Origin: a virus
Lineage: Duplodnaviria; Heunggongvirae; Uroviricota; Caudoviricetes
DNA: 48,976 nucleotides
Direction: 5' to 3' (one strand)
IMG/VR virus record: IMGVR_UViG_2541047786_000002
Location: 1-48,976 of that record
Below, one piece after another: positions 5,120-23,728 of this stretch; the stretch's first letter is position 1, and each line of letters begins with the position of its first letter. A model generated the notes under the pieces. That model worked only from the letters and a program-made list of their open reading frames with translations, did no database searches and had not been told where the DNA came from. The translations under genes were made by a program, and so were the position numbers.

Positions 5120-5458
5120 CATTTTTTTACGGCGTTCATATTCGTTAATATTTATGAAGCCTGTTGCCAGAAGCAGTTCGTTAATTTCATGGTTGTTTGG
5201 CTGTTTCTGGCTCTTTGAGCTGGGATCTTCCACTTCTTTTTCTGCAAATTGTTTTGCTGTATCCTCTGTGCCATGGATATTTAAAGCTGTATCTGAAAAC
5301 AGCCCAGTAAACGCATCGCGCACATTACGAGCCATATTATCAGTGTCTTTTTTTGTTACCGATTCCAATTCAAGTTCGTTCAGACGATGACGAAGTGTGT
5401 GTGCTGCAATCTCCTGGATTGAAGGAGGTAAATCTTTAAATTCCATCGTCAACCTCAT
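5108..5458 (-). CDS. Hypothetical early-left operon protein (116 aa; alternative start at MEFKDL)
   Basis: ORF coupled to the upstream gene by a TGATG overlap; acidic, Lys-rich; no family recognised. Confidence 0.5.
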   Translation of the reverse strand: MRLTMEFKDLPPSIQEIAAHTLRHRLNELELESVTKKDTDNMARNVRDAFTGLFSDTALNIHGTEDTAKQFAEKEVEDPSSKSQKQPNNHEINELLLATGFININEYERRKKMLSD

Positions 5459-5691
5459 CAGTCAGTGTTTCTTGCTAACCAGCGATGCGCGCCAGCTGCG
5501 GTTTTAAACGTTTTACTTTTGGTATACGTCATCGCGGTGAAGGTGCCGTCCTGGTTAGGGAACACACCGCATACCAGAGATTCGTTGTTGCCAAGATCGA
5601 TAGTATCCATGCTGACCTCATTTCCCCTTAACGCCGGGGTAGCGGAACAAAAACCTGCTGCATAGTTATTAAAGTTGAACCCTGCCGTCAT
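5458..5691 (-). CDS. Hypothetical early-left operon protein (77 aa), first gene after the repressor
   Basis: ORF in the position of the first PL-operon gene; no family recognised. Confidence 0.5.
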   Translation of the reverse strand: MTAGFNFNNYAAGFCSATPALRGNEVSMDTIDLGNNESLVCGVFPNQDGTFTAMTYTKSKTFKTAAGAHRWLARNTD

Positions 5692-5902: not shown

Positions 5903-6541
5903 TTAAATATCTTGTTGAATTTTAAAGCATACGCCCAATATGCAAGATAGATCATCCAGCATAATTGAAGGGTAGCGAGGATTCGTGGGGACTAAAAGAA
6001 TATCCGGCCCTTCTATCTCCAGTTTACGAATGACAGGTGTTGTGGTCCCTTTGGGTAAGGCAAGGACAATATTTCCCGGTTGTACGGTTCGATCGGGATC
6101 AACAAAAACTGTTGAACCATTTGGGATGGAAACTCCCCCACCAGATGTTGACATACTGTCACTCTCTAGAACAACTGCAAAGGTATTGGCCGGGATTTCT
6201 CCGACAAGCTGCACACAAGAGGTTATTGAGGAATTTTTCATATAATCACTCCAGCTTGCTGCCTGCTGAAGTGATAGTAGCGGAACCGTTTTTATCGGCG
6301 GTAAAGATAGATCAAGCGAATCACCTGTATTTAACTCTCCTCCATTAAGAAGCCAATTTTCGTTTACTTTCAATATGTTTGCCAGTGAACTTATGTAACG
6401 CGAGGACGGCGCTCCTCCACCGTTCATCCATTGACTTACGGAGCCTTTTGATGCGCCAGTGGCATTGACAAGGTCTTTGCCTTTCAGGTTTAGCGCATGC
6501 ATACGTTGGGTTATGCGTTCAGATATTGTTTGCTTGCTCAT
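5903..6541 (-). CDS. CI-like prophage repressor (HTH_XRE N-terminus plus S24 LexA-like self-cleaving peptidase domain)
   Basis: 212 aa; N-terminal HTH (KGKDLVNATGASKGSVSQWMNG); C-terminal S24-like segment (VVLESDSM ... IVLALPKG ... RKLEI); divergent from the cro-like gene. Confidence 0.85.
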   Translation of the reverse strand: MSKQTISERITQRMHALNLKGKDLVNATGASKGSVSQWMNGGGAPSSRYISSLANILKVNENWLLNGGELNTGDSLDLSLPPIKTVPLLSLQQAASWSDYMKNSSITSCVQLVGEIPANTFAVVLESDSMSTSGGGVSIPNGSTVFVDPDRTVQPGNIVLALPKGTTTPVIRKLEIEGPDILLVPTNPRYPSIMLDDLSCILGVCFKIQQDI

Positions 6542-15549: not shown

Positions 15550-15930
15550 ATGACTGAACGCATAGAATTTGTTTTGCCTTACCCGCCAACGGTGAACACT
15601 TACTGGCGACGCCGTGGCAGCACATATTTTATCTCGGAGGAGGGAAAGCGTTATCGCCGGGCTGTGGCGCTTATTGTTCGCCAGCAGCGGCTGAAATTAA
15701 GCCTGTCCGGAAGGCTGGCGATAAAGGTGATTGCAGAGCCACCGGATAAGCGTCGTCGCGACCTGGACAATATTCTGAAAGCACCACTGGATGCGCTGAC
15801 GCATGCCGGACTTCTCATAGACGACGAGCAGTTTGATGAAATCAATATTGTGCGCGGTCAGCGCGTTCCTGGGGGGCGGCTGGGCGTGAAGATTTACCCC
15901 ATAATGCTTGAAGGGCAGGTCAAAAAATGA
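15550..15930 (+). CDS. rusA: Holliday-junction resolvase RusA
   Basis: 126 aa; conserved RusA motifs (VLPYPPTVNTYW ... RRRDLDNILKAPLDALTHAGLL); TAAATG coupling to the upstream gene. Confidence 0.85.
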   Translation: MTERIEFVLPYPPTVNTYWRRRGSTYFISEEGKRYRRAVALIVRQQRLKLSLSGRLAIKVIAEPPDKRRRDLDNILKAPLDALTHAGLLIDDEQFDEINIVRGQRVPGGRLGVKIYPIMLEGQVKK

Positions 15931-16748
15931 AACTGGAAGATTTACCGAAATACTACTCCCCAAAATCCCCCGGCCTGACTGATGCATCGGCCTCAACGTC
16001 GAAAGATGCGCTGAGTATCACTGATGTGATGGCCGCGCAGGGCATGACACAGAATCGGGCTGAGATGGGGTTTTCTGCGTTCCTTGGGAAAATGGGCATT
16101 AGTATGAATGACAGAGAGCGGGCAACAGAATTGCTGACAGAATATGCACTCAGTCGGTGCGATCGTGTGGCGGCGTTGAGAAAACTTCCGGCAGAAATAA
16201 AACCGGTAGTGATGCGCATTATGGCTTCGTATGCGTTTGAAGATTATGCCCGTAGCGCGGCGAGCAAAAAACAGTGCCCCTGCTGTCACGGAAAAAAATT
16301 TATTGAAAGCGAGGTTTTTACAAACAAGATCCAGTATCCGGATGGTAAGCCACCAGTGTGGGCAAAGTGCACAAAAGGCGTGTATCCGTCTTACTGGGAA
16401 GAATGGAAAAAAGTCAGGGAGGTGGTAAAAGTTGCCTGTCCGGAGTGTGGCGGAAAGGGTGAGGTTTCCACCGCCTGTAAGGATTGCCGTGGGCGTGGTG
16501 TCGCCATTCACCGTGAAGAGTCGGTAAAACGTGGTATGCCTGTTATCAGAGACTGCCAGCGTTGTGGTGGTCGTGGCTATGAAAGACTACCATCAACGGA
16601 GGCATTTAATGCTATATGCGAGGTGACAAACCAGATAACACGCGCGTCATGGGAAAAAACAGTTAAGAAATTCTATGATGCGCTGGTGACCCGGTTTGAT
16701 ATTGAAGAAGCATGGGCTGAGCGGCAGTTAAAAAAGGTAACTAGGTAA
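15927..16748 (+). CDS. Late-gene antiterminator Q (phage 82 / QuuQ-like family)
   Basis: 273 aa with multiple CxxC zinc-finger motifs (CPCCHGKK, CPECGGKG, CKDCRGRG, CQRCGGRG); immediately upstream of a pR'-tR' unit; ATGA-coupled to rusA. Confidence 0.7.
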   Translation: MKLEDLPKYYSPKSPGLTDASASTSKDALSITDVMAAQGMTQNRAEMGFSAFLGKMGISMNDRERATELLTEYALSRCDRVAALRKLPAEIKPVVMRIMASYAFEDYARSAASKKQCPCCHGKKFIESEVFTNKIQYPDGKPPVWAKCTKGVYPSYWEEWKKVREVVKVACPECGGKGEVSTACKDCRGRGVAIHREESVKRGMPVIRDCQRCGGRGYERLPSTEAFNAICEVTNQITRASWEKTVKKFYDALVTRFDIEEAWAERQLKKVTR

Positions 16749-16891: not shown

Positions 16892-16967
16892 GGCCCTTTA
16901 GCTCAGTGGTGAGAGCGAGCGACTCATAATCGCCAGGTCGCTGGTTCAAATCCAGCAAGGGCCACCA
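16892..16967 (+). tRNA. tRNA with CAT anticodon (ileX/ileZ-like tRNA-Ile2; Met not excluded)
   Basis: 76-nt cloverleaf: acceptor GGCCCTT / AAGGGCC, anticodon loop CTCATAA, T-loop TTCAAAT, encoded CCA; closely resembles recalled E. coli ileX. Confidence 0.8.
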
Positions 16968-17067
16968 TCACAAACCGCCATTAGCTTATCAGGAAGAGCA
17001 GACGACGCGATAACAGGGTTGTTGGTGCGGGGGCGGGTCCCCGATGGCGGTCCATTATCGGTATTCA

Positions 17068-17141
17068 GCGTTGTTAGCTCAGCCGGACAGAGCAATTGCC
17101 TTCTAAGCAATCGGTCACTGGTTCGAATCCAGTACAGCGCG
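17068..17141 (+). tRNA. tRNA-Arg (anticodon TCT), argN/argO-like as in Stx-type phages
   Basis: Acceptor GCGTTGT / ACAGCGC (one G-U), anticodon stem ATTGC / GCAAT with loop CTTCTAA, T-arm ACTGG TTCGAAT CCAGT; CCA not encoded. Confidence 0.75.
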
Positions 17142-17281
17142 CTATATTCATTCTTCCAGATTCCTTCCGGCAGAGCCTTATACTGAAATATACCTGGCTC
17201 AGGATATTGTTGAAAATATTATATGTTTGTCAAAAATAAAAGTTCTGTTAAGTATTGATTGAGTGTTTGTTATACGGTCTA

Positions 17282-18055: not shown

Positions 18056-18391
18056 TTATGGACTTTGTTGTTTTAGTCCATAAGGACATATTTGCAGAGT
18101 GCAACGGTTATTAAAGCATTCATTCAATACGTTATCTGTATTTGTAGGACATTCCTGGCTGTTTTTGATTAAATTCCAGAATGTTTTATTGAATGGTGCT
18201 ACGTTGTAAATGGTTACAGGTAGCACTTTGTTATTGAGCATGATACCTGTGTGAGTCAGTGTAAATATACTTTCAGGAGGTAAGAAAGCATCCGATTGAT
18301 ACCAGATTATTAATTTTATTTTACTCCATATGACTGAAAAAGATATTCCGCATGATGGCTGGATAACTGTATCAATCACAATCCACTTCAT
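18056..18391 (-). CDS. Hypothetical Cys-rich protein (111 aa) in the toxin-cargo slot
   Basis: Minus-strand ORF with good SD (AAGGAA about 6 nt upstream of ATG); AT-rich codon usage; no family recognised. Confidence 0.45.
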
Positions 18392-18636: not shown

Positions 18637-20613
18637 ATGGTGGAAAGAACCATGGCATTTAAACACTATGATGTTGTCAGGGCGGCATCGCCGTCAGACC
18701 TTGCGAAACGACTGACACAAAAACTGAAGGAGGGGTGGCAGCCATTTGGCAGTCCGGTGGCCATCACGCCTTATACCCTGATGCAGGCCATTGCGGCGGA
18801 AGGTGATGTCACCACACCTGTGGTGGTGAAGCCGTCGGATGGAGAAGGCGCAGTTATCAGCACCACCAGCAACCCGGAGTATTACTTTGTTGTTGCCCTG
18901 GCCGGGCAGTCAAACGGTATGGCGTATGGTGAAGGGCTTCCGCTGCCGGAGACATATGACCGTCCGGACCCGCGTATTAAACAGCTGGCGCGTCGCAGCA
19001 CTGTCACGCCGGGTGGTGCGTCCTGTAACTACAATGACATTATTCCTGCGGACCACTGCCTGCATGATGTTCAGGATTTGAGTAAGTTTTCACACCCGAA
19101 AGCCAGCGCAGCTCAGTATGGATGCGTGGGGCAGGGATTACATATCGCGAAGAAATTGTTGCCGTTTATTCCGGCGAATGCCGGTATTCTTCTGGTTCCG
19201 TGCTGCCGTGGTGGTTCTGCATTTTTGGCGGGCGATGAAGGTACCTTCAGCGAATCCACCGGCGCAAGCGAGACCTCGGCACGCTGGGGTGTTGATAAGC
19301 CACTGTACAAGGACCTGCTTACCCGTACTCAGGCCGCACTGAAGGCCAACCCTAAAAATATTCTGCTTGCAGTGGTCTGGATGCAGGGCGAGTTTGATTT
19401 GAAACAGGGTGCATACGCCACTCAGCCGGGGCTGTTTGATTCCATGGTGGAAAAATATCGTTCTGACCTGTCGGAATTCGGAGGTCAGTGTCTCGGGGGC
19501 TCTCCGTCATCGGTTCCCTGGATTTGTGGCGACACGACCTACTACTGGAAGCAGACTTATTCTTCGCAATACGATGCGGTGTATGGTGCATACAAGACGA
19601 AATCCGCAAAAAAAATCTTCTTTGTGCCGTTTATGACGGATGAAAACGGGCGAAATGTGGGTACCAACGAGCCGTCAGAAGATCCGGATGTTGCGGATAT
19701 TGGGTATTACGGAGCCGGTGGTCGAACGGACGCCAAAACCTGGACGACGGCCGACCGTAAAACGCATTTTGGATCATGGGCACGTCGTGGGATTATTTCC
19801 GACCGTCTGGCAACGGCGATTCTTGTGCATGCCGGGAGAAACGCTGAATTCATTACCGGAAAACAGCCTGATACGGTGAAGCCCACCGGACCTTCCGGTG
19901 AAGGTACGGAGAGAGAGCCGGAAGCCCCGGTCAGTAACCGAACCCTGATGAGTCTGCTGGCGTCCGGCGAAGACCTGGCATCACAGGGCTGGCGCTATTA
20001 TCACAAACCGGCGAGCGGAGACAATGTTAACAAAAACATTGCTGAAGCGGTGGTCAGTGATGCGGGGGCTACGGGAGGTAAGGCCCTGCAACTGAATAAA
20101 CCGGAAAACCACATCTGGTTTCTGGAGCATGATGCAGCCGGACAGGGAGTGGAGTTACTGAAGAAGGGGGGACGTGTGAGCGTACGGTTTAAGTTGCCGG
20201 GTTCACTGGTGCCGAATCAGTTTGCCCTGGGCATTTACTGGCAGTTGTCGTCCCTGCCGGAGGGAGTGACGCTGGCAGAGGAAGGCAACGACATGCTGAT
20301 GTCCTTCTTTCTGCAGACGGATGCGACGAACCTGAACGCGATGCACCACAAGAAGCCGAATGCGAAGCTGGAAACGTTCGGGGTCTTTGATAACGGATGG
20401 CACACACTGGCTTTTGAGTTTGCCGGAAACAACAGCATTCAGGTGACGCCGGTACTGGATGAGAAACGGGGGACGCCGTTCACACTGGTGAAATCTCCGG
20501 CATCAGGGGCGGCGGACAAACTGCAACTGACAGGCATATCAAAGGCGGCGACATATACGCTGCTGATTGACAGTGTGAAGGTGGAAGTGAACAACGCGGA
20601 CATCGCGGCATGA
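18637..20613 (+). CDS. nanS-p: NanS-p-type sialate O-acetylesterase (DUF1737 N-terminus plus SGNH/SASA esterase domain)
   Basis: 658 aa; N-terminal MAFKHYDVVRAASPSDLAKRL (DUF1737-like); GQSN motif (ALAGQSNGMAYG) of SGNH hydrolases; located after Q-tRNAs as in Stx phages; alternative start ATG 18652. Confidence 0.8.
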   Translation: MVERTMAFKHYDVVRAASPSDLAKRLTQKLKEGWQPFGSPVAITPYTLMQAIAAEGDVTTPVVVKPSDGEGAVISTTSNPEYYFVVALAGQSNGMAYGEGLPLPETYDRPDPRIKQLARRSTVTPGGASCNYNDIIPADHCLHDVQDLSKFSHPKASAAQYGCVGQGLHIAKKLLPFIPANAGILLVPCCRGGSAFLAGDEGTFSESTGASETSARWGVDKPLYKDLLTRTQAALKANPKNILLAVVWMQGEFDLKQGAYATQPGLFDSMVEKYRSDLSEFGGQCLGGSPSSVPWICGDTTYYWKQTYSSQYDAVYGAYKTKSAKKIFFVPFMTDENGRNVGTNEPSEDPDVADIGYYGAGGRTDAKTWTTADRKTHFGSWARRGIISDRLATAILVHAGRNAEFITGKQPDTVKPTGPSGEGTEREPEAPVSNRTLMSLLASGEDLASQGWRYYHKPASGDNVNKNIAEAVVSDAGATGGKALQLNKPENHIWFLEHDAAGQGVELLKKGGRVSVRFKLPGSLVPNQFALGIYWQLSSLPEGVTLAEEGNDMLMSFFLQTDATNLNAMHHKKPNAKLETFGVFDNGWHTLAFEFAGNNSIQVTPVLDEKRGTPFTLVKSPASGAADKLQLTGISKAATYTLLIDSVKVEVNNADIAA

Positions 20614-20749
20614 TAAAAAAAGCCGCCAGCGGCAGGAATGGAAGCTGGCGGAGGTAATCCCAATGGAGAATGTAAAGAAAAGATGCTTTCGACATCAATC
20701 ATTTCTAAATGAAAACAGTTCTCATTGTCAACCATAACGGTAAGAAATT

Positions 20750-20932
20750 ATGACATTTATTCATCAGGTAATGCTGTACTTCTGTATGGCAGTCTGTGTT
20801 ATGTATCTTCTTTCGGGTGGGTACAGGGCAGTGCGCGATTTCTGGCGCAGGCAGATTGATAAAAGGGCCGCTGAGAGAATCAGCGCCAGTCAGTCAGCCG
20901 GAAGCAAACCCGAAGATCCGCTCATTCCGTAG
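20750..20932 (+). CDS. Hypothetical small membrane protein (60 aa)
   Basis: One TM-like segment (VMLYFCMAVCVMYLLSGG); weak SD. Confidence 0.3.
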   Translation: MTFIHQVMLYFCMAVCVMYLLSGGYRAVRDFWRRQIDKRAAERISASQSAGSKPEDPLIP

Positions 20933-20969
20933 TCACTTTCTTGACAACACCTTTCAACGAGAAAATCCC

Positions 20970-21215
20970 ATGTCAGAAATCACATCCCTGGTCACTGCTG
21001 AGGCAGTGAAGGAAGTCCTGCGCTCTGAAGAAGTCCTGAGCGCACTGAAACAGAAACTCCGCCAGAACCTTGAGTCGCGTCTTGATGCAGAAGTGGATGC
21101 CATTCTGGATGAGCTGCTGGGCGTACCAGCGGTTCCGGAGCCGGAAGGTATCGCGGGTGACGGGAGTGCTTCAGATGGCGGTGAACCCACACCTGACAGC
21201 GACATGATGATGTAA
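20970..21215 (+). CDS. Hypothetical acidic protein (81 aa)
   Basis: Internal ATG of track ORF 20796..21215; product [23 protein letters not shown]... Confidence 0.35.
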
Positions 21216-21291
21216 GCCTGCGCAAGGGACCATCGGTGTGTGCCGGTGGTCTTTATATTGTTGTGAGCTTCCGGATAACGGGAGACGGGGT

Positions 21292-21507
21292 ATGTACCAG
21301 ATGGAAAAAATCACAACAGGTGTGTCATACACCACGTCAGCGGTGGGAACGGGCTACTGGTTCCTGCAGTTGCTGGACAGGGTTTCCCCGTCTCAGTGGG
21401 CGGCAATAGGCGTGCTGGGGAGTCTGCTGTTTGGGCTGCTGACGTACCTGACTAACCTGTATTTCAAAATCAAAGAGGACCGGCGTAAGGCGGCGCGGGG
21501 AGAGTAA
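21292..21507 (+). CDS. S: Class II (pin)holin, phage 21 S-like, with dual-start motif
   Basis: 71 aa [71 protein letters not shown]; Met1/Met4 dual start; strong SD GGGAGACGGGG. Confidence 0.85.
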
Positions 21508-21511
21508 AGTG

Positions 21512-22318
21512 ATGAATAAAAAATATGAACTGGTTGTTAAGGGGATAAATAATTACGGGGATAAGGTTACTGTTACTGTGAAGCCGGAAGGTGACGGGCA
21601 AGCGTCGCTGTTGTTGCCAGATGTGGCGATTAGTCTTGACCGTACTGAAGGTGCCACGCTGGAGTTTTACGAAGCTGAGGCGAAAAAGCAGGCGAAGCAG
21701 TTTTTCATGGATGTTGCTGCCGGGTTATGTGAATGGAACGAACCGTTGCCGGAAAAGCGCCCCGTAATTTTAGAGGCGCAGGATGTGTTGATAACCTACA
21801 AAGGAAAGCTACCGGGAAGAATTACTTGTTCTCTGAAGATGCCGCCGTCAACACTGCGGTCAGAAAAAGAGGCGTCTTGTCTGCAGTCTGAGTACTCCAT
21901 TACGGTTAAAAGTGCCGGAGAGGAAGGAAATAAACGTTATTTTATTGCGTCTGCACCTGATAAAGATCAGGAATGGGAGTGTAACCGGCCATCCTTTGTT
22001 GTATACGGAGATGGCGGGAAAATAACCATCTCAGAAAATGGGAAATTAACACCGCCATCGCACCAGCATAGTGAGGCGCTCATTGAATTTGCCATTGATT
22101 ACCTGAAGAACAATAAAAAGCAGGGGCTGATGAAGCGCATTGGTCGTTGCATGGGATATCTGCAGGTAGCAGCTGAGATTGAAATGATGGCCAGTGGTGC
22201 TGACAATGATGCAGTTGTGCTGGAGGCTCTTCTGCGTGATTTTGATAATACGCCCTTTAAGAAAGCACCTGTTGACTGGATGCAGCCGGGGATGACTTAT
22301 CTGAAAGGGCGTATATAA
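21512..22318 (+). CDS. Hypothetical protein (268 aa) inserted between holin and endolysin
   Basis: ATG 21512 with SD GGGGAGAG, 5 nt after the holin stop; no signal peptide, TM segment or recognisable family. Confidence 0.55.
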   Translation: MNKKYELVVKGINNYGDKVTVTVKPEGDGQASLLLPDVAISLDRTEGATLEFYEAEAKKQAKQFFMDVAAGLCEWNEPLPEKRPVILEAQDVLITYKGKLPGRITCSLKMPPSTLRSEKEASCLQSEYSITVKSAGEEGNKRYFIASAPDKDQEWECNRPSFVVYGDGGKITISENGKLTPPSHQHSEALIEFAIDYLKNNKKQGLMKRIGRCMGYLQVAAEIEMMASGADNDAVVLEALLRDFDNTPFKKAPVDWMQPGMTYLKGRI

Positions 22319-22327
22319 GGTGGCTCG

Positions 22328-22642
22328 TTATCTGTTGCTGGATAATCGACTGAAGATGCGTTCTTTTTGTGTTTTTGCGTAATGATTGTCCCACTCACAA
22401 TCAAGGTAGCTTAATTCTTCATTCAACCAGTTATTTATATTGGTCTTAATACGCATAAGCATGGGTTGTGTTAATGCTCTGGCGATAATGCCGAGAGTCA
22501 CAGGTGTGAGATGTCCATACGGCTCAGCCTGAATGGATTTTACTGCATCGTGTTCTTGTGGGAGGAGTAAGAGGCACTCTGATTTTACCCGCTCATTTAT
22601 GGCTTGCAGGCATAAATCATAATTATGTTGATCGTTATGCAT
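22328..22642 (-). CDS. Hypothetical protein (104 aa), convergent with the 268-aa gene
   Basis: Minus-strand ORF with SD AGAGGA about 6 nt upstream of ATG; no family recognised. Confidence 0.45.
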   Translation of the reverse strand: MHNDQHNYDLCLQAINERVKSECLLLLPQEHDAVKSIQAEPYGHLTPVTLGIIARALTQPMLMRIKTNINNWLNEELSYLDCEWDNHYAKTQKERIFSRLSSNR

Positions 22643-22770
22643 GGTTAATCCTCTACTGAAATTGTCAGATATATTTCAGCCATCAGGAAAAACGCCAGTG
22701 TCCTACCGCTGGCGGGCTGAAGATTTAACATATCCAGGGATTCGGAACCGATAAATCCTGATAAATATCC

Positions 22771-23304
22771 ATGAACACCAAAATCAAATATGGCCTGTCG
22801 GCTGCCGTTCTGGCGTTGATTGCCATCGGTGCGCCTGCGCCTGATATTCTCGACCAGTTTCTGGATGAAAAAGAAGGTAACCACACAACGGCATACCGTG
22901 ATGGTGCGGGTATCTGGACCATCTGCCGCGGTGCCACAATGGTGGATGGTAAACCTGTTATTCCGGGCATGAAACTGTCGAAGGAAAAATGCGACCAGGT
23001 TAATGCCATTGAACGGGATAAGGCGCTGGCATGGGTGGAGCGCAATATTAAAGTTCCACTGACCGAACCACAGAAAGCGGGTATAGCGTCATTCTGTCCC
23101 TATAACATTGGCCCCGGTAAGTGTTTCCCGTCGACGTTTTATAAGCGGCTGAATGCTGGTGACCGCAGGGGAGCGTGTGAGGCGATTCGCTGGTGGATTA
23201 AGGACGGTGGCAGGGACTGCCGTATTCGCTCAAATAACTGTTACGGTCAGGTATCCCGTCGTGACCAGGAGAGCGCGCTGGCGTGCTGGGGAATCGACAG
23301 ATAA
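22771..23304 (+). CDS. R: SAR endolysin (lysozyme, phage 21 R / Stx-phage R type)
   Basis: 177 aa; N-terminal signal-anchor-release segment (GLSAAVLALIAIGAPAP) followed by catalytic EGNHTTAYRDGAGIWTICRGAT motif. Confidence 0.85.
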   Translation: MNTKIKYGLSAAVLALIAIGAPAPDILDQFLDEKEGNHTTAYRDGAGIWTICRGATMVDGKPVIPGMKLSKEKCDQVNAIERDKALAWVERNIKVPLTEPQKAGIASFCPYNIGPGKCFPSTFYKRLNAGDRRGACEAIRWWIKDGGRDCRIRSNNCYGQVSRRDQESALACWGIDR

Positions 23305-23398
23305 GCAGAATATTTTGCTAATAAATGACGTTGGCCAAGGCGGACGGATAACACGAAATCCTGCGAACTGGCAAAATGTAAGTGAATAAAAGTAAAAA

Positions 23399-23433
23399 CC
23401 CCGTTTGTTGGCAGCAAGCGGGGTTTTGTTTTT
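23399..23433 (+). terminator. Rho-independent terminator between endolysin and spanin genes
   Basis: 9-bp stem CCCCGTTTG / CAAGCGGGG (one G-U), 7-nt loop, followed by TTTTGTTTTT. Confidence 0.65.
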
Positions 23434-23596
23434 ATGGCAGTAAGCTATGGGAGGCTGCCTTGATTGATTTTAGCAAACTGATTAGGGAGTTGCGACTCAT
23501 GATTAGTCAATTACCAAACTGGAAATTTTTGCTGGTCTGGAGCATCCCTTTTTTATGGGTAGTATCCCAGTTAATTGTGGCAATTAAGGGGTAGCT

Positions 23597-23728
23597 ATGT
23601 CAGACAAACTCATAACGCCGGCAAAGGTCCTGTGTGTGATTGTCGGTATTTCATTTTCACTAATGCTGGTTGCTCTTTTTCTGTCCCTCGCCTGGGTGAT
23701 GTTGTCTTCGTCGGGGCTGCTGGGGTGA
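23597..23728 (+). CDS. Hypothetical 43-aa hydrophobic peptide
   Basis: ATG with SD AAGGGG; product MSDKLITPAKVLCVIVGISFSLMLVALFLSLAWVMLSSSGLLG. Confidence 0.3.
   Translation: MSDKLITPAKVLCVIVGISFSLMLVALFLSLAWVMLSSSGLLG

What the first reader, a model, noticed from the sequence alone, without database searches (positions are those of the whole stretch)
21512..22770. Two-gene insertion splitting the lysis cassette between pinholin and SAR endolysin
In phage 21 and Stx phages as I recall them the holin and endolysin genes are adjacent. Here a 268-aa protein (SD-equipped, starting 5 nt after the holin stop, so co-expressed at lysis) and a convergent 104-aa ORF with its own SD, plus a hairpin (about 22697..22718), are inserted. 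Candidate lysis-timing regulator, lysis-released effector, or lysogenic-conversion/defence pair.
Basis: partly seen in the sequence, partly recalled or inferred. Interest (0 to 1): 0.6.

Follow-up and report, generated by a model that had tools for sequence, protein, structure and literature searches.

The report
YdfR-family gene pair in lysis cassette
Between the hole-forming and wall-degrading lysis genes of this E. coli prophage lie a two-domain YdfR-family late gene and a small partner gene on the opposite strand; the pairing is already in public records and is conserved in Salmonella prophages, but its function is unknown.

Summary
A 268-aa ORF (21512-22318, +) and a convergent 104-aa ORF (22328-22642, -) separate the phage-21-type holin from the SAR-type lysozyme, and a hairpin lies at 22693-22714.

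Canonical Stx phages such as 933W and VT2-Sakai do have S and R adjacent. But this is one allele of a highly polymorphic slot: 59 of 71 related viral contigs carry something there, and so does E. coli K-12 Qin (essQ-ydfR-rrrQ).

Gene 1 is a full-length YdfR/DUF1327 protein with a DUF1327 head, a disordered linker and a conserved, unnamed C-terminal domain. Gene 2 is a genuine protein-coding gene (dN/dS about 0.3, confident helical bundle). It always lies tail-to-tail with a C-domain gene, also in Salmonella prophages at 42-48% identity. It sits behind a conserved leader: a TAnnnT box, the hairpin and a Shine-Dalgarno site.

The same arrangement is annotated in Stx2 phage 86, where gp06 is identical in protein sequence to gene 2. 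Gene 2 DNA occurs in 90 of 5,426 complete E. coli genomes.

The function is not established. The only experimental lead is that K-12 YdfR binds RNase E. No evidence supports a role in lysis timing or in a known defence system.

The parts
21292..21507 (+). Phage-21-type class II holin (context, left border of the slot). Its 3' end carries the Shine-Dalgarno site GGGAGAG (21498-21504) used by ORF268.
   Evidence: Pfam Phage_holin_2_1, E 7e-33; sequence. In S-R-adjacent alleles the same SD precedes R.
21512..21739 (+). ORF268 residues 1-76: DUF1327 (YdfR) head domain.
   Evidence: Pfam PF07041, 139 bits, residues 1-100. 47% identity to K-12 YdfR residues 1-74, E 3e-21. AF2 gives three strands plus a long helix, pLDDT 62-81. 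dN/dS 0.5-0.9.
21740..21976 (+). ORF268 residues 77-155: linker, predicted disordered. Length and content vary between alleles; many alleles have a coiled-coil-like stretch here.
   Evidence: pLDDT 22-34; alignments A1 and A5; mosaic breakpoints at gap nt 363 and 463.
21977..22318 (+). ORF268 residues 156-268 plus stop codon: conserved C-terminal domain with no Pfam family. Signature: H-x(~24)-GR(C/S)MGxLQxAAEIE ... PPxK ... W-x2-PG-x2-YLK.
   Evidence: Invariant L198 G211 R212 L217 Q218 A220 P248 K250 W256 P259 Y263 across E. coli and Salmonella members. dN/dS 0.25-0.44. Also exists as a separate 185-217-aa protein without DUF1327. No Pfam hit.
22328..22642 (-). ORF104: small soluble helical protein, convergent with ORF268. 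Its Shine-Dalgarno site GAGGA lies at 22653->22649.
   Evidence: phrog_1853, E 8e-50. AF2 5-helix bundle, pLDDT 88. dN/dS 0.25-0.35. Salmonella homologues at 42-48% identity, aligned end to end. Always tail-to-tail with a C-domain gene.
22643..22692 (-). Leader between the hairpin and the ORF104 start codon; partly conserved between E. coli and Salmonella.
   Evidence: Alignment A9. The same leader precedes an unrelated 86-aa cargo ORF in Salmonella locus L106.
22693..22714 (.). Conserved inverted repeat / hairpin CG(C/T)CAGTG-loop-CACTGGCG. It forms the right-hand boundary of all cargo-bearing alleles.
   Evidence: Present in 8 distinct E. coli allele types carrying 5 different cargo genes and in Salmonella loci. 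Fold -14.4 kcal/mol on the + strand, -11.8 on the - strand. Covariation inconclusive. The BP-4795 short allele is joined inside its right arm.
22727..22732 (-). TATGTT: a -10-like TAnnnT box about 9 nt upstream of the extended hairpin, on the ORF104 strand. Putative promoter element (inferred).
   Evidence: T, A and final T are invariant across E. coli and Salmonella in alignment A9. The -35 is weak, and the consensus scan finds no 9/12 promoter.
22771..23304 (+). Lysozyme with a SAR-like N-terminus (context, right border of the slot). No canonical Shine-Dalgarno site in the 20 nt before its ATG.
   Evidence: Pfam Phage_lysozyme, E 3e-25; hydrophobic residues 9-27; sequence.

Best explanation
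The region is one allele of a polymorphic accessory slot attached to the lysis module of enterobacterial lambdoid prophages. It holds a conserved two-gene unit.

Gene 1 (ORF268) is a full-length YdfR-family protein: DUF1327 head, flexible linker and conserved C-terminal domain. It is translated from the Q-dependent late transcript, using the Shine-Dalgarno site that precedes R in S-R-adjacent phages. It is soluble and dispensable for lysis. By homology with K-12 YdfR, whose first 72 residues bind the catalytic half of RNase E and which co-purifies with RNA, its head most likely docks onto RNase E or RNA late in infection. It would then act on RNA turnover rather than on the lysis clock.

Gene 2 (ORF104) is a cargo gene. 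It is read in the opposite direction from a conserved platform: a weak TAnnnT promoter-like box, a 5' hairpin, a leader and an SD. It is therefore probably expressed in the lysogen and overrun when late transcription starts. Because its stop lies 9 nt from that of ORF268, its transcript must run antisense into ORF268. ORF104 is never found without a C-domain gene, while the reverse is common. I therefore infer that ORF104 is an optional partner of the C-domain, such as an inhibitor or safety catch, rather than an independent moron.

Shown: gene identities, domain architecture, polymorphism, purifying selection, conserved synteny and conserved leader. Inferred: RNase E binding by this particular protein, promoter activity, timing of expression, and any ORF104-C-domain contact.
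For: Family and architecture:
- Pfam DUF1327 and PHROG matches.
- Two folded domains separated by a disordered linker.
- The same head-linker-C-domain architecture in Salmonella proteins at about 30% identity.

Slot polymorphism:
- 71 IMG/VR loci fall into S-R gap classes of 1-4 nt (12 loci), 358-418 (18), 596-603 (8), 691-692 (11), 768-868 (4), 931 (9), 1000-1029 (3), 1097 (1), 1263 (3), 1307 (1) and 1316 (1) nt.
- K-12 Qin has essQ-ydfR-rrrQ.

Real genes:
- dN/dS is 0.25-0.35 for ORF104 and 0.25-0.44 for the C-domain, against 0.05-0.1 for R.

Pairing:
- 65 of 67 ORF104-family genes have a C-domain gene tail-to-tail within 60 nt; the other 2 have one within about 105 nt.
- There are 44 distinct protein pairs. 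Identities of the two partners to the window fall together, from 100/100 down to 44/39%.
- In Salmonella the gene order is Q-HicAB-[two-domain gene]->, <-[ORF104-like]-holin-lysozyme-Rz.

Platform:
- TAnnnT, TTCAGCCCGYCAGTG-loop-CACTGGCGTT, the leader and the SD are conserved across genera.
- The platform is shared by unrelated cargo ORFs.

RNase E lead:
- PMC13232886 reports bacterial two-hybrid and Strep co-purification of K-12 YdfR with Rne 1-597/598. Residues 1-72 suffice, RNA co-purifies, and overexpression is not toxic.
- The window head is 47% identical over that part.

Not membrane proteins.
Against: - No expression data exist for either gene. The consensus scan finds no sigma-70 promoter upstream of ORF104, and the -35 is poor.
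- The RNase E evidence comes from a 47%-identical homologue, tested by overexpression, two-hybrid and pull-down. In that study YdfR overproduction changed few transcripts.
- The C-domain occurs without ORF104 in 19 distinct proteins at 30 loci. The same leader drives unrelated cargo next to a C-domain gene (L106). ORF104 could therefore be an interchangeable moron whose adjacency reflects linkage only.
- Fold searches gave no informative match for either protein.
- Wobble pairs in the hairpin favour the + strand in E. coli variants and the - strand in Salmonella variants, so its strand of action is unresolved.
Confidence: 0.45

Rival explanations
1. Independent moron plus accessory late gene. 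ORF104 is one of several interchangeable lysogen-expressed cargo genes, for lysogenic conversion or an as-yet-unlisted defence. They are dropped behind a common promoter-hairpin platform and have no functional tie to ORF268. Adjacency to the C-domain would reflect common descent and recombination through flanking homology.
For: - At least six cargo types share the same sub-site and the same 77-nt R-proximal segment in E. coli; hhalign probabilities among the five small types compared are below 6%, and the sixth, about 210-233 aa, has no Pfam or PADLOC family and was not compared.
- In Salmonella the identical leader drives either an ORF104-like gene or an unrelated 86-aa ORF.
- ORF104 has the lowest G+C of the region, 40.6%.
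- C-domain genes do without ORF104 at 30 loci.
Against: ORF104 is the only cargo type found clearly conserved in both genera, and it is never separated from a C-domain gene. This holds although everything else has been shuffled: the head domain, the linker, and the position relative to the holin. No PADLOC, Pfam or NCBIfam family matches.
Confidence: 0.25
2. Effector-immunity unit organised like a colicin operon: SOS/late-induced effector ->, <- constitutively expressed immunity, -> lysis genes. ORF268 would be released at lysis or would be toxic in the cytoplasm, and ORF104 would protect sibling lysogens or the uninduced cell.
For: - The layout matches: effector gene, small opposite-strand gene, then lysis genes (holin-lysozyme in Salmonella, lysozyme in E. 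coli).
- There is a conserved head with alternative C-terminal domains. The alternative C-domain B travels with a different convergent gene of about 210-233 aa (L006, L049, L078).
- ORF104 is never found alone.
- The colicin comparison rests on my own knowledge of pore-forming colicin operons.
Against: - The putative effector is often found without the putative immunity gene (30 loci). This is the reverse of what toxin-immunity pairs show.
- There is no toxin, receptor-binding or translocation domain match.
- ORF104 is soluble with no signal peptide or TM segment.
- Overproduction of K-12 YdfR (head only) is not toxic.
Confidence: 0.12
3. Lysis-timing or endolysin-release regulator. ORF268 and/or ORF104 would modulate pinholin triggering or SAR-endolysin release.
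For: YdfR-family genes are persistently linked to lysis cassettes in E. coli, Salmonella and another lambdoid contig. ORF268 is translationally placed right after S. A published envelope-integrity screen hit for ydfR is cited in PMC13232886.
Against: - Neither protein has a membrane segment.
- The slot is empty in 12 of 71 relatives and in 933W and VT2-Sakai.
- Alleles are truncated, split and shuffled freely.
- The head evolves fast (dN/dS 0.5-0.9), while S and R are tightly constrained.
- In Salmonella the pair lies outside the S-R pair.
Confidence: 0.1
4. Decaying remnant. The long ORF is a YdfR pseudogene fused to junk, as NCBI's PGAP pipeline annotates it, and ORF104 is a spurious ORF.
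For: PGAP labels the first 336 nt 'YdfR family protein, incomplete, missing C-terminus' in SCU-484, ATCC 25922 and O104:H4.
Against: - The frame is intact for 268 codons.
- The C-domain is under purifying selection and conserved with invariant residues in Salmonella.
- ORF104 has dN/dS about 0.3, a conserved length and a confident fold.
- The PGAP call follows from a family model built on short YdfR proteins.
Confidence: 0.03

Closest known systems
E. coli K-12 Qin prophage YdfR (P76160), Pfam DUF1327 / NCBI 'YdfR family protein'
   Same: Homologous head domain (47% identity over residues 1-74; PF07041). Same place between an S21-type holin (essQ) and a lysozyme (rrrQ).
   Different: K-12 YdfR is 103 aa, has no C-terminal domain and no convergent partner, and overlaps rrrQ. 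The window protein is 268 aa with a linker and a conserved C-domain. RNase E binding has been shown only for the K-12 protein (PMC13232886).
Stx2-converting phage 86 gp05 / gp06 (NC_008464)
   Same: Same two genes in the same layout. DNA identity is 96% over S through R, and gp06 is 100% identical to ORF104 in protein sequence.
   Different: That phage carries stx2 upstream. Its head domain is a different allele (87% identity). Both genes are annotated only as 'YdfR family' and 'hypothetical', and no study of them was found.
Lambdoid morons (lambda bor and lom; concept of Hendrix and colleagues; my own knowledge)
   Same: ORF104 is an optional, low-G+C gene set against the late operon. It shows presence/absence and replacement polymorphism between near-identical phages.
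   Different: No clear own promoter or terminator was detected. It shares a conserved promoter-like box, hairpin and leader with other cargo genes. It is strictly linked to one neighbouring gene family.
Operons of pore-forming colicins (colicin gene ->, <- immunity gene, -> lysis gene; my own knowledge)
   Same: Order and orientation match: an induced effector gene, a small opposite-strand gene, then lysis function. The same regulatory logic is expected, with induced expression against constitutive expression.
   Different: No sequence or fold relation. ORF104 is soluble, not an inner-membrane immunity protein. The putative effector often lacks the putative immunity gene.
Phage proteins acting on RNase E: phiKZ Dip (PMC4980113, listed); T7 gp0.7 and T4 Srd (my own knowledge)
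   Same: If the homology-based inference holds, this is a phage-encoded protein that contacts RNase E during infection.
   Different: Dip binds RNA-binding segments of the C-terminal scaffold, whereas K-12 YdfR binds the N-terminal catalytic half. There is no sequence relation, and the effect of YdfR on RNase E activity is unknown.
Accessory lysis regulators (antiholins; Mu releasin gp25, PMC9239132, listed)
   Same: Encoded in or next to the lysis cassette and made late.
   Different: Those are membrane proteins required for normal lysis. ORF268 and ORF104 have no membrane segment, and the slot can be empty.

Membership tests
YdfR / DUF1327 family (for ORF268) | Significant match to Pfam PF07041 above the gathering score | tested here: met
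   139.1 bits against a cut-off of 25, residues 1-100. BLASTP to K-12 YdfR, E 3e-21.
YdfR / DUF1327 family (for ORF268) | Encoded next to the lysis genes of a lambdoid prophage, typically between an S21-type holin and a lysozyme | tested here: met
YdfR / DUF1327 family (for ORF268) | Single-domain protein of about 100-115 aa, as in K-12 YdfR and BP-4795 ORF47 | tested here: not met
   268 aa with an additional conserved C-domain. The long architecture recurs in Salmonella, so the family definition appears too narrow; the protein is not an outsider.
YdfR / DUF1327 family (for ORF268) | Binds the N-terminal catalytic half of RNase E; co-purifies with RNA | not testable with these tools
   Shown only for K-12 YdfR (PMC13232886).
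Moron (for ORF104) | Optional gene that is present, absent or replaced between otherwise similar phages, with deviant base composition | tested here: met
   Present in 4 of 71 related loci and replaced by other ORFs in others. G+C 40.6% against 53-55% in S and R.
Moron (for ORF104) | Own promoter and terminator, allowing expression from the repressed prophage | tested here: inconclusive
   A conserved TAnnnT box lies upstream, but there is no 9/12 consensus promoter. There is no room for a terminator: the stop codons are 9 nt apart.
Holin/endolysin regulators (antiholin, releasin) | Membrane-associated protein (TM or SAR segment) | tested here: not met
   Maximum 19-residue Kyte-Doolittle hydropathy is 0.87 (ORF268) and 1.16 (ORF104), against 1.70 (holin) and 1.88 (R).
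Holin/endolysin regulators (antiholin, releasin) | Constant component of the cassette type | tested here: not met
   12 of 71 relatives, and 933W and VT2-Sakai, have S and R adjacent.
Known anti-phage defence or toxin-antitoxin systems | Match to a described defence or TA protein family | tested here: not met
   PADLOC, Pfam and NCBIfam give no hit for ORF268's C-domain or for ORF104.
Known anti-phage defence or toxin-antitoxin systems | Obligate co-occurrence of the two partners (toxin never without antidote) | tested here: inconclusive
   ORF104 is never found without a C-domain gene (67 of 67). The C-domain is found without ORF104 at 30 loci.
Known anti-phage defence or toxin-antitoxin systems | Toxicity or phage resistance on expression | not testable with these tools
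   Needs an experiment.
Intrinsic terminator (for the hairpin) | G+C-rich stem followed by a U-run on the transcribed strand | tested here: inconclusive
   There is no U-run on the + strand. On the - strand TTTTT follows in the window, and the scan tool flags the Salmonella copies. However, the hairpin lies upstream of ORF104, not after a gene.

The most novel reading that the evidence does not exclude
The unit is a prophage-borne effector/guard switch built like a colicin operon. A late, lysis-coupled two-domain protein targets RNase E or RNA through its DUF1327 head and carries an exchangeable C-terminal effector domain. A lysogen-expressed small protein (ORF104, or other cargo read from the same promoter-hairpin platform) neutralises it in uninduced cells or in sibling lysogens. 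The S-R junction would then be a cassette-exchange site for such guard genes in Stx-phage relatives.
Probability: 0.12. Interest if true: 0.8.

Novelty: new variant of a known kind. Interest (0 to 1): 0.45.

Why it matters
The lysis region of Stx phages and related prophages controls toxin and phage release. This region is usually drawn as S-R-Rz, yet most relatives sampled here carry extra genes of unknown function inside it. One is a family that sits in E. coli K-12 itself and was recently reported to bind RNase E.

Three results give concrete handles on that gap:
- The long two-domain form, not the short K-12 form, is the architecture conserved across genera.
- It comes with an oppositely transcribed partner.
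- That partner sits behind a conserved expression platform.

The work also corrects a systematic annotation artefact, in which long YdfR genes are called pseudogenes. If the pair proves to be an RNase E-directed effector with a guard, it would be a new type of prophage accessory system. If not, it is a well-delimited moron hotspot.

Tried and rejected
Family and sequence searches that found nothing:
- NCBIfam and PADLOC gave no hit for either protein. Pfam and PADLOC gave nothing meaningful for the other cargo ORFs.
- A PDB sequence search gave nothing significant.

Fold searches:
- The afdb50 library was unavailable.

RNA and promoter analysis:
- Rfam on 20600-23600 gave only sub-threshold chance hits.
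- Hairpin covariation gave 1 compensatory and 2 wobble changes among 8 variants. This is not distinguishable from shuffles, 145 of 500.
- A consensus promoter scan found nothing upstream of ORF104.

Homology among cargo ORFs:
- hhalign among five convergent cargo ORF types gave all probabilities below 6%. The idea that they are one diverged family is rejected.

Collection scans:
- The genome-contig scan with the C-domain alignment confirmed only three Escherichia/Shigella loci.
- IMG/VR scans with the Salmonella proteins found nothing.

Literature:
- 'YdfR' + 'holin', 'DUF1327' and 'Stx2-converting phage 86' gave no functional study apart from PMC13232886.

Caveat on counts:
- The counts of S-R-adjacent records are upper bounds. 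BLAST pieces up to 665 nt apart are merged into one place, so I rely on the exact gap lengths instead.
Full report
**1. What is in the sequence**

The window is a complete lambdoid prophage. Its late region reads as follows:
- Q-type antiterminator (15927-16748)
- two tRNA genes
- an IraM-like gene on the opposite strand
- a NanS-p-type SASA esterase (18637-20613)
- DUF1378 and DUF826 small genes
- a phage-21-type holin (21292-21507)
- the two ORFs of the finding
- a lysozyme with a SAR-like N-terminus (22771-23304)
- small ORFs, Rz and terminase

ORF268 starts at ATG 21512, four bases after the holin stop, behind GGGAGAG. ORF104 runs 22642->22328 on the other strand, behind GAGGA. The two stop codons are 9 nt apart. 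The hairpin is at 22693-22714.

**2. Is it an 'insertion'?**

Both states exist.
- Deposited Stx phages such as 933W, VT2-Sakai, Min27 and Stx2 II have the same holin and lysozyme genes abutting in a single BLAST piece.
- I sampled 80 IMG/VR contigs chosen only by a holin at least 97% identical. Of these, 71 contain both S and R.
- Their S-R spacers are 1-4 nt (12 loci), 358-418 (18), 596-603 (8), 691-692 (11), 768-868 (4), 931 (9), 1000-1029 (3), 1097 (1), 1263 (3, the window type), 1307 (1) and 1316 (1).
- E. coli K-12 itself has essQ-ydfR-rrrQ in Qin.
- Part of the query, mostly the first ~330 nt, is found in 2,709 of 5,426 complete E. coli genomes. The whole 1,259 nt is found in 55.
- ORF104 DNA is found in 90 genomes, including an O104:H4 outbreak-lineage strain.
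- The same layout is annotated in Stx2-converting phage 86: gp05 as 'YdfR family' and gp06 as 'hypothetical'. Its DNA is 96% identical, and gp06 is 100% identical to ORF104 in protein sequence.

But the region is a common, highly mosaic slot, not a singular insertion.

**3. Gene 1 (ORF268)**

Residues 1-100 match Pfam DUF1327 at 139 bits. The whole protein matches phrog_1085.

AlphaFold2 gives two folded parts joined by a disordered stretch:
- residues 5-76: three strands and a long helix
- residues ~160-230 and beyond: three strands and helices
- residues 77-155: pLDDT 22-34

Alignments show that the parts are modules:
- short YdfR proteins of 103-116 aa (K-12, BP-4795) stop after the head
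- 176-211-aa forms add a coiled-coil-like stretch
- 268-333-aa forms add the C-domain
- 185-217-aa proteins have the coil and C-domain without the head
- one allele encodes the C-domain protein first and a separate 75-aa DUF1327 protein second

The window allele is itself a mosaic. Its first 363 nt are 100% identical to the ATCC 25922 allele, while the C-domain part is 89% identical. The BP-4795 short form looks like a deletion derivative. It matches the window spacer at nt 1-340 and then resumes at nt 1198, inside the right arm of the hairpin.

An exhaustive HMMER search of 1.84 billion cluster representatives found only 111 relatives, so the family is narrow. The most distant ones are Salmonella enterica prophage proteins of 260-340 aa. 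They keep the head, a coil and the C-domain. Eleven residues are invariant: L198, G211, R212, L217, Q218, A220, P248, K250, W256, P259 and Y263.

The long two-domain form is thus the architecture conserved across genera. PGAP's label 'YdfR family protein, incomplete' for the long genes is an artefact of a short-form model.

Selection differs between the parts. The C-domain has dN/dS 0.25-0.44 and the head 0.5-0.9. For comparison, R has 0.05-0.1 and the holin about 0-0.09. There is no membrane segment.

**4. Gene 2 (ORF104)**

ORF104 has no Pfam, NCBIfam or PADLOC family. It matches phrog_1853. The evidence that it is a real gene:
- E. coli homologues at 71-99% identity keep 103-104 codons.
- dN/dS is 0.25-0.35.
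- AlphaFold2 gives a confident five-helix bundle, pLDDT 88 and pTM 0.81, from only 14 sequences.
- It is soluble.

In every context examined it lies tail-to-tail with a gene ending in the C-domain, whatever that gene's N-terminal part.

The Salmonella two-domain genes are also followed by a convergent small ORF. In three lineages this ORF is a clear ORF104 homologue, 42-48% identical and aligned end to end, with the invariant motif W..(D/E)E..YLDC.WD. There the pair lies upstream of the holin: Q-HicAB-[pair]-holin-lysozyme-Rz.

I then searched all loci fetched with HMMs.
- 65 of 67 ORF104-family genes with enough flank have a C-domain gene within 60 nt of their stop. The other two have one within about 105 nt.
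- There are 44 distinct protein pairs.
- Identities of the two partners to the window fall roughly together: 100/100, ~80/80, 84/59, 71/58, 48/42, 46/43 and 44/39.
- The reverse does not hold. 19 distinct C-domain proteins at 30 loci have no ORF104.

**5. The cargo sub-site and its leader**

In E. coli the place next to R can hold ORF104 or other convergent ORFs: four small types of 79-95 aa and one of about 210-233 aa. The five small types, ORF104 included, show no detectable relation to one another, with hhalign probabilities below 6%. The largest ORF, which was not compared, travels with an alternative forward C-terminal domain (L006, L049, L078).

All cargo-bearing alleles share the last ~77 nt before R, including the hairpin.

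Aligning the region upstream of ORF104-family genes from E. coli and Salmonella shows a conserved unit on the ORF104 strand:
- a TAnnnT box (window TATGTT, 22732->22727)
- 9 nt further, TTCAGCCCG(C/T)CAGTG-loop-CACTGGCGTT
- a partly conserved ~50-nt leader
- GAGG and ATG

In Salmonella locus L106 the very same leader precedes an unrelated 86-aa ORF.

I read this as a shared expression platform with exchangeable ORFs. The TAnnnT box would place a transcription start at the foot of the hairpin, giving a 5'-terminal stem-loop. This is inference: the -35 is poor and the consensus scan reports no promoter.

The hairpin's role is unresolved. It might be a 5' stabiliser, an attenuator, a protein-binding palindrome or a recombination boundary. 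Covariation is too sparse to decide, and the wobble pairs point to different strands in the two genera.

**6. Function**

Nothing in the sequence or fold searches names a biochemical activity.

The only experimental lead is Göpel et al. 2026 (PMC13232886):
- K-12 YdfR was recovered in a two-hybrid screen.
- Its residues 1-72 suffice for the signal with RNase E and RNase G.
- Strep-YdfR co-purifies Rne 1-598 and DNase-resistant nucleic acid.
- Overproduction is not toxic and changes few transcripts.

The window's head is 47% identical over exactly that part. My best-supported reading is as follows. ORF268 is a dispensable late cytoplasmic protein whose head contacts RNase E or RNA. ORF104 is an optional partner of its C-domain, made from the opposite strand when late transcription is off.

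The rivals are:
- an unrelated moron
- a colicin-operon-like effector/immunity unit
- a lysis regulator
- junk

They are weighed in the structured fields. The lysis-regulator and junk readings are the ones the data argue against most clearly.

**7. Novelty and verdict**

The genes themselves are in public records and in Pfam and PHROG families, so this is not a new entity. I found no description of the following:
- the conserved long architecture with its C-domain
- the cross-genus pairing with the ORF104 family
- the shared promoter-like/hairpin platform with exchangeable cargo

I rate the finding a new variant of a known kind: a YdfR-family accessory gene of lambdoid lysis modules. It is of moderate interest. 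It would become considerably more interesting if the effector/guard reading or the RNase E connection were confirmed.

Noticed in passing
window 22735-22770 (upstream of R ATG 22771): In all alleles with an occupied slot, R has no canonical Shine-Dalgarno site (…GATAAATCCTGATAAATATCC-ATG). The strong GGGAGAG at the end of S is used by the YdfR-family gene instead. In S-R-adjacent phages that same SD serves R. Occupation of the slot may therefore change endolysin translation.
   Followed up: partly
L004 (SCU-484) 6001-6336; L005 (ATCC 25922) 2501-2836; L105 (O104:H4) 5185-5520: PGAP annotates the long YdfR-family genes as pseudogenes ('incomplete, missing C-terminus') and leaves the conserved C-domain unannotated. 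This is a systematic annotation artefact.
   Followed up: yes
window 21512-21739 and homologues: The DUF1327 head evolves much faster than its neighbours. dN/dS is 0.5-0.9, and above 1 in two comparisons, although the counts are small. Such rates are often seen in proteins that interact with the host.
   Followed up: partly
L105 4966-5175 (E. coli O104:H4 FDAARGOS_349): The outbreak-lineage strain carries the same ORF268/ORF104 unit in a non-Stx lambdoid prophage whose holin gene is annotated as truncated.
   Followed up: no
L106, L108, L110, L141 (Salmonella prophages), just upstream of the pair: A HicA/HicB toxin-antitoxin module sits between Q and the YdfR-like/ORF104-like pair, in either orientation. 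This is another accessory insertion in the same late-operon neighbourhood.
   Followed up: no
L006, L049, L078 (S-R spacers of 1000-1307 nt): An alternative forward C-terminal domain (…HSFGGFHEAIKHDVERSPG…) is paired with a convergent ORF of about 210-233 aa. Neither has a Pfam or PADLOC match. This looks like a second 'C-domain plus partner' combination in the same slot.
   Followed up: partly
window ~18056-18391 (- strand) and 16892-17142: Between Q and the esterase gene lie an IraM-like anti-adapter gene on the opposite strand (by the SCU-484 annotation) and two tRNA genes. ARAGORN calls them tRNA-Met(CAT) and tRNA-Arg(TCT); PGAP annotates the first as tRNA-Ile.
   Followed up: no
L104 3501-4091 and 4409-4684: In another lambdoid contig, two DUF1327-like genes (196 and 91 aa) lie directly upstream of a different holin/endolysin pair. 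The family's linkage to lysis genes therefore extends beyond S21-type cassettes.
   Followed up: partly
window 20615-20689 (- strand): A sub-threshold Rfam match to the EHEC sRNA Esr41 (20.7 bits against a gathering score of 102, E 0.85) lies next to a terminator-like hairpin just after the esterase gene. It is probably chance.
   Followed up: no
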